From positions 1-64,000 of IMG/VR virus record IMGVR_UViG_3300038410_000026: a stretch of 64,000 nucleotides of DNA; one strand, 5' to 3'. A program made the position numbers and the translations under genes. Position 1 is the first letter of the stretch; every line of letters begins with the position of its first letter. This document shows positions 26,930 to 28,323 of the stretch, in pieces. This stretch comes from a virus. Below the pieces are notes generated by a model, which had not been told where the DNA came from, made no database searches, and worked only from the letters and a program-made list of their open reading frames with translations.

Positions 26930-28323
26930 GAATGTTTCGATAGATATGGAGCGAGCCACGTTCGGGGAATGTTCCAAAAAAGTTGAGCGAGCCATCGAAT
27001 GAGAATATTTCATGCCGAGTGAGCGAGCCAGTATTGGGGAATGTTTCGACAGATCTGAGCGAGCCATTTCGCGTGAATGTTTCACGATAAGCGAGCGAGC
27101 CAGAGATCGGAAATGTTTCACGTGGTGCGAACGAGCCATTGATCGTGAATGTTTCATGATGGCAGAGCGAGCCAGTGCTGGGGAATGTTTCATTGCGATG
27201 TGAGCGAGCTACGGAGCGAGAATGTTCTGCAAAAGTGAGCGAGCCAAGACTCAGGAATGTTTCAAGCCACGAGAGCGAGCCAAGGCGAGTGAATGTTTCA
27301 GATATTCGGAGCGAGCCATAGGATCTGAATGTTTCATACGGGGGAAGCGAGCCAGTGAAGCCGAATGTTTCAAGTTGCAGGAGCGAACCAAGAAGAAAGA
27401 ATGTTTCACGAAAAGCGAGCGAGCCATAGGATCTGAATGTTTCATATGCAGGAGCGAGCCAAGCCGGAGGAATGTTTCAAACTGCAAGGGCGAGCCATTG
27501 GATGTGAATGTTTCACGAGTTCAGAGCGAGCCATTCCAAAAGAATGTTTCATGACCTGTGAGCGAGCCATTTCACGTGAAAGTTTCACGCCACGCGAGCG
27601 AGTCAAGAGAGTCTAATGTTTCATGATTATAGAACGAGCCAATGACGGGGAAGGTTTCGATAGATGTTAGCGAGTCATTGACGGGGAATGTTTCACATGC
27701 TGTGAGCGAGCCATTGATCGGGAATGTTTCATGAGAAGCGAGCGAGCCATGTCGATGGAATGTTTCAACAGATGTGAGCGAGCCATGCCTGAAGAATGTT
27801 TCATAAAGCGTGAGCGAGCCATTTCAGCGGAATGTTTCATTGCGAGTGAGTGAGCCGTACAAAATGACTGTTTCATGTAGATAGAGCGAGCCATTGAGCA
27901 TGTATGTTTCATGATGCGTGAGCGAGCCATTGGTAGAGAATGTTTCAGCAGTAGTGAGCGAACCATGGAGCGGTAAGGTTTCAGCGAGCATGAGTTAGTC
28001 AATAAGAGTGAAGGTTTCACTGGAATTGAGCGAGCCATTGGCACAGAATGCTTCAAGATAGATGAGCGAGCCAAAGTGGCAGATGGTTTCATCAGGTGGG
28101 AGCGAGCCAAAAGTCGAGAATGTTTCATGAGAAGCGAGCGAGCCAGCAGCGCTTAACGTTCCATTGTAGATGAGCGAGCCATTGGAAGAGAAGGTTTCAG
28201 AAATTGGGAGCGAGCCAAAATGAACGAATGTTTCATCTGAAGTGAGCGAGCCACTGCCAAGGAATGTTTCGTGAGGCGTGAGCGAGCCAAGGACAAAGAT
28301 GGTATTCAAATGTGCGGAGCGCT
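26930..28323 (+). repeat. TIGR-like guide RNA array 3, orphan (about 38 x 36-nt units)
   Basis: GAGCGAGCCA-N8-GAATGTTTCA-N8; edge repeats at 26949, 26985, 27021 ... 28280; same repeats as arrays 1 and 2, opposite strand, co-oriented with local genes. Confidence 0.93.

What the first reader, a model, noticed from the sequence alone, without database searches (positions are those of the whole stretch)
27057..28216. Spacer modules are copied, recombined and swapped between slots across the three arrays
Seen: (i) unit AAGTGGCA-GATGGTTTCA-TCAGGTGG is identical in array 1 (~6934-6978) and array 3 (~28064-28109), including the variant loop repeat. (ii) The array 2 unit at 8396-8440 matches 28172-28216 with one mismatch, and its first spacer TTGGTAGA recurs near 27930 with a different second spacer. 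(iii) Second spacer CGATAAGC has different first spacers at ~8150 and ~27085. (iv) The rare edge variant GAGTTAGTCA is in array 1 (~6862) and array 3 (27992). (v) TTGGATGT is a second-slot spacer twice in array 2 (units at 8576 and 8827) but a first-slot spacer in array 3 (~27498). Inference: diversity arises by recombination or gene conversion of 18-nt half-units (both repeats start GA and end CA), creating new bipartite specificities combinatorially rather than by Cas1-like acquisition.
Basis: partly seen in the sequence, partly recalled or inferred. Interest (0 to 1): 0.8.

Follow-up and report, generated by a model that had tools for sequence, protein, structure and literature searches.

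The report
Shared guide modules in phage TIGR arrays
A 95-kb wetland phage carries three arrays of short two-part guide RNAs (a known TIGR-TasA system); some guide pieces are copied between the arrays and re-paired with new partners, a first clue to how such arrays change, although their movement between the two guide positions is not supported.

Summary
The window has three TIGR dual-repeat arrays. Each 36-nt unit is edge GAGCGAGCCA, 8 nt, loop GAATGTTTCA, 8 nt. They flank or lie 19 kb from one nuclease-less TasA gene.

All five sub-observations are at the stated places. There are 12 exact same-slot spacer pairs against about 0.5 expected (0 of 2000 shuffles). Mis-assembly does not explain this: contigs built independently from two runs carry both contexts of the shared modules I checked.

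Partners of shared spacers are either identical (three whole units) or unrelated. Rare variants of the upstream repeat travel with shared spacers (P = 3e-5), so these are copies by descent.

In relatives, four near-identical phage contigs differ over 10.9 kb by one replaced spacer only. Related arrays are mosaics whose joins lie in edges (57) more often than in loops (22).

Best reading (confidence 0.6): in-register recombination or conversion between repeats, plus point mutation. Whole units move about twice as often as half-units.

Not supported: slot swapping, which rests on one event at chance level. Not shown: recombination as the source of new spacers. About two thirds of spacers have no relative within one mismatch, and their origin is unexplained.

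This is a known kind of system with a new observation on how its arrays evolve.

The parts
6375..7113 (-). TIGR array 1, directly downstream of tasA. It has about 19 units and becomes degenerate towards 6375. Irregular spots: edge, 7 nt, edge at 6726-6700, and a 16-nt spacer at 6555-6540.
   Evidence: Parses; period-36 rows of Tandem Repeats Finder.
7110..8045 (-). tasA: a 311-aa Nop-domain protein with no nuclease domain. It is the only Tas gene in the 95-kb genome.
   Evidence: Pfam PF02371, E 1.8e-5. PDB TasR 9mty, E 9.7e-15, aligned only to TasR residues 125-323. PDB TasH 21kl, E 5.9e-9. Single PF02371 match in the genome.
8056..8988 (-). TIGR array 2, upstream of tasA, about 25 units.
26930..28323 (+). 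TIGR array 3, about 38 units, 19 kb from tasA and on the opposite strand. It ends in a degenerate unit followed by a GC-rich hairpin.
   Evidence: Logan contigs of runs X1 and X2 were laid on it; X1 pieces cover it with 0-2 differences, none listed within the array.
28071..28110 (+). Whole unit AAGTGGCA / GATGGTTTCA / TCAGGTGG, identical to 6932-6971(-) in array 1. This 40-nt match is the longest exact match between arrays.
28172..28216 (+). Whole unit TTGGAAGA / GAAGGTTTCA / GAAATTGG. It equals the array 2 unit at 8396-8440(-) with one mismatch; 31 nt are exact.
27956..28027 (+). Two-unit block paralogous to 6835-6906(-). Edges match 29/30, including the edge variant GAGTTAGTCA that occurs only at these two places. 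Spacers A match 14/17, loops 18/20, and spacers B only 6/16.
27072..27102 (+). Spacer B CGATAAGC with both flanking repeats, identical to 8143-8173(-). The partner spacers A differ at 3 of 8 positions.
27920..27955 (+). Unit TTGGTAGA / GCAGTAGT. Its spacer A is shared with array 2 (8430-8423). Its spacer B is unrelated to the array 2 partner, so this is a re-pairing across a loop.
27542..27559 (+). Loop plus spacer B TGACCTGT. The spacer is shared with array 1 (loop at 7068); the partner spacers differ at 7 of 8 positions.
27498..27505 (+). TTGGATGT in slot A. This is the only cross-slot match; the same 8-mer is spacer B at 8843-8836 and at 8592-8585.
   Evidence: significance tested.
8973..12616 (-). 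Genes directly upstream of the TIGR locus: a 409-aa ORF of unknown family, a Cas4-like PD-(D/E)XK exonuclease (10537-11160) and a RecT-like single-strand annealing protein (11129-12616). This is a candidate, untested recombination machinery.
   Evidence: PHROGs and Pfam scans. Homologues of the exonuclease and the 409-aa ORF lie upstream of tasA only in the L034 group; the exonuclease alone also matches L066.

Best explanation
The three arrays are TIGR arrays serving one TasA protein. Each 36-nt unit encodes a guide RNA with two 8-nt spacers.

The shared spacers are copies by descent. DNA segments that begin and end inside the 10-nt repeats have been copied or exchanged between arrays, and within arrays, in register: edge with edge, loop with loop. 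The likely routes are unequal crossing-over, copy-choice (template switching) or short-tract gene conversion during phage replication. Afterwards the copies drift by point mutation.

A join inside an edge moves whole guides. A join inside a loop puts spacer A of one guide next to spacer B of another and so makes a new 16-nt specificity.

Arrays 1 and 2 are inverted relative to array 3, so exchange between them must be non-reciprocal (conversion or copy-choice), not simple crossing-over.

Shown here: the sharing, its mosaic form, the co-transfer of repeat variants, the preservation of register, and the same kinds of change in related phages.

Inferred: the enzymatic route, including any part played by the neighbouring RecT-like protein and exonuclease, and that the re-paired guides are functional.
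For: 1. Sharing is far above chance: 12 exact same-slot pairs against about 0.5 (column shuffle) and 1.36 (Markov null).

2. Neighbours of shared spacers are bimodal, either 0-1 mismatches or mostly 4-8. Three whole units are shared and about seven spacers are shared singly.

3. Rare variants of the upstream repeat are identical in 3 of 6 informative shared pairs, against 1.2% of other pairs (Fisher P = 3.5e-5). The edge variant GAGTTAGTCA, found only at these two places, marks a two-unit paralogous block.

4. All matches lie in transcriptional orientation. No 24-mer is shared in the opposite orientation and no spacer matches the reverse complement of another.

5. Register is kept: cross-slot sharing is 3 pairs against 0.4 expected over 37 loci, while same-slot sharing is 38 against 0.8.

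6. Relatives:
- L034, L035 and L037 against L038, from four metagenomes, are identical over 10,869 bp except for one spacer B (AAGTAGAG to TGGACACG). A one-mismatch paralogue of the new spacer sits in the same slot of the same array.
- Four related phages with flanks 90-98% identical carry mosaic arrays. Shared runs are 1-18 spacers long, and some spacers occur in three of the four possible pairings (A1-B1, A1-B2, A2-B2).

7. Joins lie in edges 57 times and in loops 22 times over seven data sets. In every set the edge repeat is also the more uniform of the two, which fits exchange that depends on homology.

8. The genome has no Cas1, and a RecT-like protein with an exonuclease lies next to the locus.

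9. Not an assembly artefact. Logan contigs of two runs from two studies break at three shared modules of array 3 (27073-27101, 28081-28100, 28188-28216), and both runs carry array 1 and array 2 sequence at joins in array 3.
Against: - No recombination intermediate or polymorphism was seen. The second sample, X2, shows no listed difference in the arrays, although it has SNPs elsewhere.
- Several near-identical phages from different samples have identical arrays. Turnover is therefore episodic, and the rate cannot be estimated.
- Ten-nucleotide repeats are very short substrates for homologous recombination.
- The replaced spacer in L038 differs by one base from its nearest paralogue, so the donor is not identified.
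- For shared spacers flanked by consensus repeats on both sides, descent cannot be told from convergence.
- The excess of edge joins could equally reflect selection against re-paired guides.
- The RecT-like protein has no homologue in the other TasA loci fetched, and the exonuclease has one in only four.
- Recombination does not explain where the roughly 100 spacers without close relatives come from.
Confidence: 0.6

Rival explanations
1. A dedicated, still unknown spacer-replacement or acquisition mechanism writes single spacers or whole units into TIGR arrays. It might depend on Tas or use an RNA template. Sharing would then arise because it sometimes uses array-derived templates.
For: L038 differs from three otherwise identical contigs only by one cleanly replaced 8-nt spacer with untouched flanking repeats. 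Such precision is unusual for general recombination on 10-nt homology. Two thirds of the spacers have no relative. The discoverers call array expansion an enigma.
Against: No candidate gene is conserved next to tasA across the loci fetched. There is no Cas1. Repeat variants travel with spacers, and multi-unit blocks move as well; both fit DNA-level copying through the repeats.
Confidence: 0.15
2. Arrays grew by duplication followed only by point mutation, with no exchange inside loops. Unrelated partners would then be old duplicates that diverged.
For: One- and two-mismatch spacer families are in excess: 25 against 7.9, and 90 against 64. 52 of 156 spacers fall in families against 15 expected. 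Similarity between spacers 108 nt (three units) apart is weakly raised, P = 0.01. The two-unit block shows point differences.
Against: One spacer identical at 8/8 next to a partner with 5-8 mismatches is very unlikely under any single divergence level: at most about 0.0035 per pair by my own hand calculation. About seven such pairs exist. Matches between arrays lie on several different diagonals, so the arrays are not colinear copies. The changes in L038 are clustered in one spacer within 10.9 kb.
Confidence: 0.1
3. Convergence through function: identical 8-mers were acquired or selected independently because the targets share half-sites such as a common motif.
For: Spacers show strong position-specific composition (G at position 7; TTG at the start of spacer A) and motif-like families. 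Transversions outnumber transitions among one-mismatch pairs in the window, 17 to 8.
Against: Rare repeat variants travel with the spacers. Whole units, and units repeated within one array, add no new specificity. No targets were found in which to look for a shared motif. The transversion excess is not seen in relatives.
Confidence: 0.08
4. Chance resemblance due to biased composition, or chimeric assembly of repetitive arrays.
For: The spacers are short and compositionally biased. The record is a metagenome assembly.
Against: 0 of 2000 column shuffles and 0 of 3000 Markov draws reach the observed sharing. The longest exact match between arrays is 40 nt. Two runs from two studies carry both contexts of the shared modules checked, and the X1 pieces agree with array 3. 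A wrong path through the assembly could swap flanks but could not create the sharing.
Confidence: 0.02

Closest known systems
Dual-repeat TIGR-TasA systems (Faure et al. 2025, Science, PMC12045711), in particular the arrays with 10-nt repeats described there next to tasA and tasParB
   Same: [quoted passage not shown] Phage-borne. No adaptation genes. Arrays lie upstream and downstream of the tas gene.
   Different: About 80 units in three arrays against the usual 5-15, and one array lies 19 kb away on the other strand. No ParB-like gene was recognised: the 409-aa upstream ORF has no ParB match in Pfam. The copying and re-pairing of spacers between arrays is not described in that paper or in the 2026 preprints I read.
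Loss, duplication and rearrangement of CRISPR spacers by recombination between repeats
   Same: Array content changes through recombination between the direct repeats. This gives deletions, duplicates and mosaic arrays among related strains, independent of Cas1 and Cas2 (stated for spacer loss in PMC12045711; otherwise my own knowledge).
   Different: CRISPR repeats are 25-36 nt and a spacer is a complete guide. Here the repeats are 10 nt, and a join in the loop repeat splits a guide and creates a new two-part specificity.
Concerted evolution and higher-order repeats of tandem satellite DNA, and cassette-type gene conversion
   Same: Unequal exchange and short-tract conversion spread variants among repeat copies and between separate arrays. 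Repeat variants travel along, and weak higher-order periods of 72 and 108 nt are seen.
   Different: Here the variable parts are presumed functional guide sequences. Most remain unique, so homogenisation is weak.

Membership tests
TIGR-Tas (dual-repeat type) | Array of two distinct alternating short repeats (8-12 nt) separated by short spacers, with a unit of about 36 nt | tested here: met
   10 + 8 + 10 + 8 nt. There are 168 repeats in three arrays, and nearly all spacers are exactly 8 nt.
TIGR-Tas (dual-repeat type) | Nop-domain Tas protein encoded next to the array | tested here: met
   ORF 7110-8045(-) lies between arrays 1 and 2. It hits solved TasR 9mty (E 9.7e-15) and TasH 21kl (E 5.9e-9) and Pfam PF02371. 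A large family of homologues exists, and most of those fetched have 36-nt arrays beside them.
TIGR-Tas (dual-repeat type) | Box C (CCA-like) at the 3' end and box D at the 5' end of both repeats, flanking each spacer | tested here: inconclusive
   The edge ends in CCA and the loop in TCA; both begin with GA. Spacers often end in G-T before the G of the repeat. This resembles the published motifs, but no structure or covariation test was made.
TIGR-Tas (dual-repeat type) | Transcription and processing into 36-nt tigRNAs cut in mid-edge | not testable with these tools
   No run on record as RNA was listed.
TasA subtype (nuclease-less) | No HNH or RuvC domain fused to the Nop domain | tested here: met
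   The protein is 311 aa. The only Pfam hit is PF02371. Its alignment to TasR starts at TasR residue 125, after the RuvC part.
TasParB-associated TasA loci | ParB-like gene in an operon with tasA | tested here: not met
   The 409-aa ORF upstream of array 2 has no ParB match in Pfam (E up to 0.1), only a weak PHROGs 'exonuclease' hit, nothing meaningful in the PDB and no usable Atlas hit. A fold comparison was not done.
CRISPR-Cas | Cas1/Cas2 adaptation module, and repeats of 25-36 nt with single spacers | tested here: not met
   No Cas1 in the 95-kb genome. The repeats are 10 nt and of two alternating kinds.

The most novel reading that the evidence does not exclude
TIGR arrays have a precise replacement process that works one spacer at a time. 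It would be short-patch conversion templated by other array members, possibly helped by phage annealing proteins. It would shuffle half-guides and generate new two-part DNA-binding specificities combinatorially, a diversity generator comparable to cassette conversion in antigenic variation. The window's three arrays and the L034/L038 pair would be its first footprints.
Probability: 0.15. Interest if true: 0.8.

Novelty: new member of a known kind. Interest (0 to 1): 0.5.

Why it matters
[quoted passage not shown] It notes that the dual-spacer layout makes expansion harder to explain. I found no later paper in the library that addresses this.

This locus and its relatives give the first concrete footprints of array change:
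- whole units and single spacers are copied between arrays in register;
- repeat variants travel with them;
- joins are commoner in the more uniform repeat;
- in one case a single spacer is the only difference between otherwise identical 10.9-kb stretches.

This makes the question testable by sequencing arrays in populations, or in passaged clones with and without recombination genes. It also shows that the two halves of a guide can be re-paired in nature.

It does not yet explain where new spacers come from.

Tried and rejected
- Close relatives with the same repeats. The edge-N8-loop pattern gave 0 hits in viral and in metagenome contigs. A TasA peptide search gave no close relative, and the best homologue is 62% identical.
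The second contig on record for this exact TasA could not be fetched.
- Self-targets. No composite 16-bp site, in either geometry and with gaps of 0-2, matched with at most one mismatch in the phage's own 95 kb. Two-mismatch hits were at the level of re-paired controls.
- Targets in 3.15 Mb of related loci: 0 exact, with 0.33 expected.
- Reverse-complement matches between spacers, which tiling of one target would predict: 0, with 0.35 expected.
- Expression: no RNA holder was listed.
- Half-unit polymorphism in reads. Only Logan contigs were available, and all joints listed within the arrays could be traced to arrays 1 and 2 laid on array 3; no variant was seen.
- Transversion excess among one-mismatch spacer pairs in the window (8 transitions, 17 transversions). 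It was not reproduced in relatives, where spacers gave 14:12 and flanks 1136:964, so I dropped it.
- Global token alignments of strongly rearranged arrays were uninformative.
- More members of the GATCGAGACA/GAGAGAACCA group: only the same contigs came back.
- Identity of the 409-aa ORF: no Pfam, PDB or Atlas lead.
- Promoter and terminator scans gave nothing above the shuffled background.
- An asymmetry between spacer A and spacer B in which one is kept, seen in one related group, is absent in the window (6 against 6), so I did not interpret it.

Full report
**What is there**

The window is the first 64 kb of a 95,392-bp virus record estimated 94% complete. It holds three arrays of a 36-nt unit. 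Each unit is GAGCGAGCCA, 8 variable nt, GAATGTTTCA, 8 variable nt.
- Array 1: about 6375-7113, minus strand.
- Array 2: about 8056-8988, minus strand.
- Array 3: about 26930-28323, plus strand.

Arrays 1 and 2 flank ORF 7110-8045(-). This 311-aa protein hits Pfam PF02371. It also hits the solved TIGR effectors TasR (9mty, E 9.7e-15, aligned only to the Nop and C-terminal part, residues 125-323) and TasH (21kl, E 5.9e-9). It is the only such gene in the genome, and there is no Cas1.

This is a dual-repeat TIGR-TasA system as described by Faure et al. 2025 (PMC12045711). GAGCGAGCCA is the edge repeat: array 3 ends on it, and it is conserved across the family. GAATGTTTCA is the loop repeat.

**The observation**

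All five sub-observations are at the stated places. I tested 156 clean spacers.
- Same-slot exact pairs: 12 observed, against 0.41-0.50 under a shuffle that keeps the composition of every spacer position, and against 1.36 under a position-specific first-order Markov null with a maximum of 8 in 3000 draws.
- One-mismatch pairs: 25 against 7.9. Two-mismatch pairs: 90 against 64.
- 52 spacers fall into families related by at most one mismatch, against 15 expected.

The cross-slot case (v) is a single event: one 8-mer that is spacer B twice and spacer A once. Cross-slot near-matches are at chance, 3 against 4.5. Over 37 loci, cross-slot sharing is 3 pairs against 0.4 expected, while same-slot sharing is 38 against 0.8.

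**Not an artefact**

The longest exact match between arrays is 40 nt and the others are 31 nt or less.

Logan contigs of two runs from two studies of wetland metagenomes were laid on 8340-28339. One of the runs may be the source of the record. The listed pieces of run X1 cover array 3 with 0-2 differences, none listed within the array. They break at three shared modules (27073-27101, 28081-28100, 28188-28216). Both runs carry array 1 and array 2 sequence at joins in array 3. A wrong assembly path could exchange flanks but could not create the sharing.

**Form of the sharing**

The spacers next to an exactly shared spacer fall into two groups: identical or nearly so, or unrelated with mostly 4-8 mismatches.
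- Three whole units are shared.
- One two-unit block is shared with point differences. Edges match 29/30, including an edge variant found only at these two places. Spacers A match 14/17, but spacers B only 6/16.
- About seven spacers are shared singly, with unrelated partners.

Matches between arrays lie on several different diagonals, so the arrays are not colinear copies.

Rare variants of the repeat just upstream are identical in 3 of 6 informative shared pairs, against 1.2% of other pairs (P = 3.5e-5). For the downstream repeat the figure is 1 of 6. So at least these shared spacers are DNA copies by descent and not independent acquisitions.

All sharing is in transcriptional orientation. 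Arrays 1 and 2 are inverted relative to array 3, so transfer between them must be non-reciprocal.

**Evidence from relatives**

TasA homologues are numerous. Most loci fetched carry 36-nt arrays with the same 10+8+10+8 design, usually with the same edge repeat and a different loop repeat.

(a) L034, L035 and L037 against L038, from four metagenomes, are identical over 10,869 bp except for a cluster of changes confined to one spacer B (AAGTAGAG to TGGACACG). The flanking repeats are untouched. A one-mismatch paralogue, TGGACAAG, lies in the same slot of the same array. By my own estimate, the chance of such a near-match to any of the roughly 19 same-slot spacers is under 1%.

(b) Four phages with flanks 90-98% identical (L018, L019, L020, L021) have arrays of roughly 12 to 46 units that are mosaics of shared runs 1-18 spacers long. 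One unit is present three times in one array. Some spacers occur in three of the four possible pairings (A1-B1, A1-B2, A2-B2), the pattern expected of a join inside a loop.

(c) I counted distinct joins where a spacer keeps its identity while its neighbour is unrelated. Over six related groups and the window, edges give 57 and loops 22. Three groups give 20 edge joins and no loop join. The window gives 12 and 6. In every data set the edge repeat is also the more uniform of the two.

(d) Several near-identical phages from different samples have identical arrays, and the second sample of the window's own phage shows no listed array difference. Change is therefore episodic and not continuous.

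**Reading**

The simplest account is in-register exchange or copying through the 10-nt repeats, plus ordinary point mutation. Possible routes are unequal crossing-over, copy-choice and short-tract conversion. Whole guides are the usual module. A join within a loop re-pairs half-guides and creates a new 16-nt specificity.

A RecT-like annealing protein and a Cas4-like PD-(D/E)XK exonuclease lie directly upstream of the locus. The RecT-like protein has no homologue in the other TasA loci, and homologues of the exonuclease and the 409-aa ORF together lie upstream of tasA only in the L034 group. Their involvement is only a possibility.

**What remains open**
- The origin of the two thirds of spacers that have no close relative.
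- Whether the clean single-spacer replacement reflects a dedicated mechanism.
- Whether the excess of edge joins is due to mechanism or to selection against re-paired guides.
- What the guides target. No site was found in the phage itself or in related loci.

**Verdict**

The system is a known kind. The evolutionary observation is new in the literature I could search and bears on a question its discoverers left open.

Noticed in passing
L034:7221-7228 against L038:1390-1397: Four near-identical phage contigs from four metagenomes differ over 10.9 kb only by one fully replaced 8-nt spacer B in their TIGR array. The new spacer is one mismatch from another spacer in the same slot of the same array.
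   Followed up: yes
window 8973-12616 (-): A RecT-like annealing protein, a Cas4-like PD-(D/E)XK exonuclease and a 409-aa ORF of unknown family lie directly upstream of the TIGR locus. The same exonuclease and ORF pair lies upstream of tasA in the L034 group only.
   Followed up: partly
loci L023-L132: The edge repeat GAGCGAGCCA is nearly the same in TasA arrays of phages and of MAGs from many phyla. The loop repeat differs between lineages (GAGAGNACCA, GATAGTAACA, GAATGTTTCA here).
   Followed up: partly
window 6700-6735 and 6540-6574 (-): Irregular spots in array 1. At one, an edge is followed after 7 nt by GAGAGAGCCA, which is one mismatch from the edge repeat and also one mismatch from the loop repeat of other lineages (GAGAGAACCA). 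At the other, a 16-nt spacer stands where a loop, a spacer and an edge are missing. These are possible scars of out-of-register deletions.
   Followed up: no
all three arrays: Spacers have strong position-specific composition: G at position 7 in 94 of 156, T at position 8 of spacer B, and TTG at the start of many spacers A. Part of this may belong to the box D motif and not to the guide.
   Followed up: partly
window 27920-28216: Five of the seven array 3 spacers that are shared exactly and in the same slot with arrays 1 or 2 lie in the last fifth of array 3, interleaved by source (array 2, 1, 1, 1, 2). This looks like a patchwork. The region was picked after seeing the data, so I give no P value.
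   Followed up: partly
window 4776-5261: A 12-nt tandem repeat of about 40 copies lies inside the DUF6745 ORF 4106-5521(-). It is presumably a coding tetrapeptide repeat.
   Followed up: no
window 15990-16881: Differences between run X2 and the window are concentrated in the AAA-ATPase-like ORF 15739-17250, about 30 of the SNPs listed. No difference is listed within the arrays.
   Followed up: no
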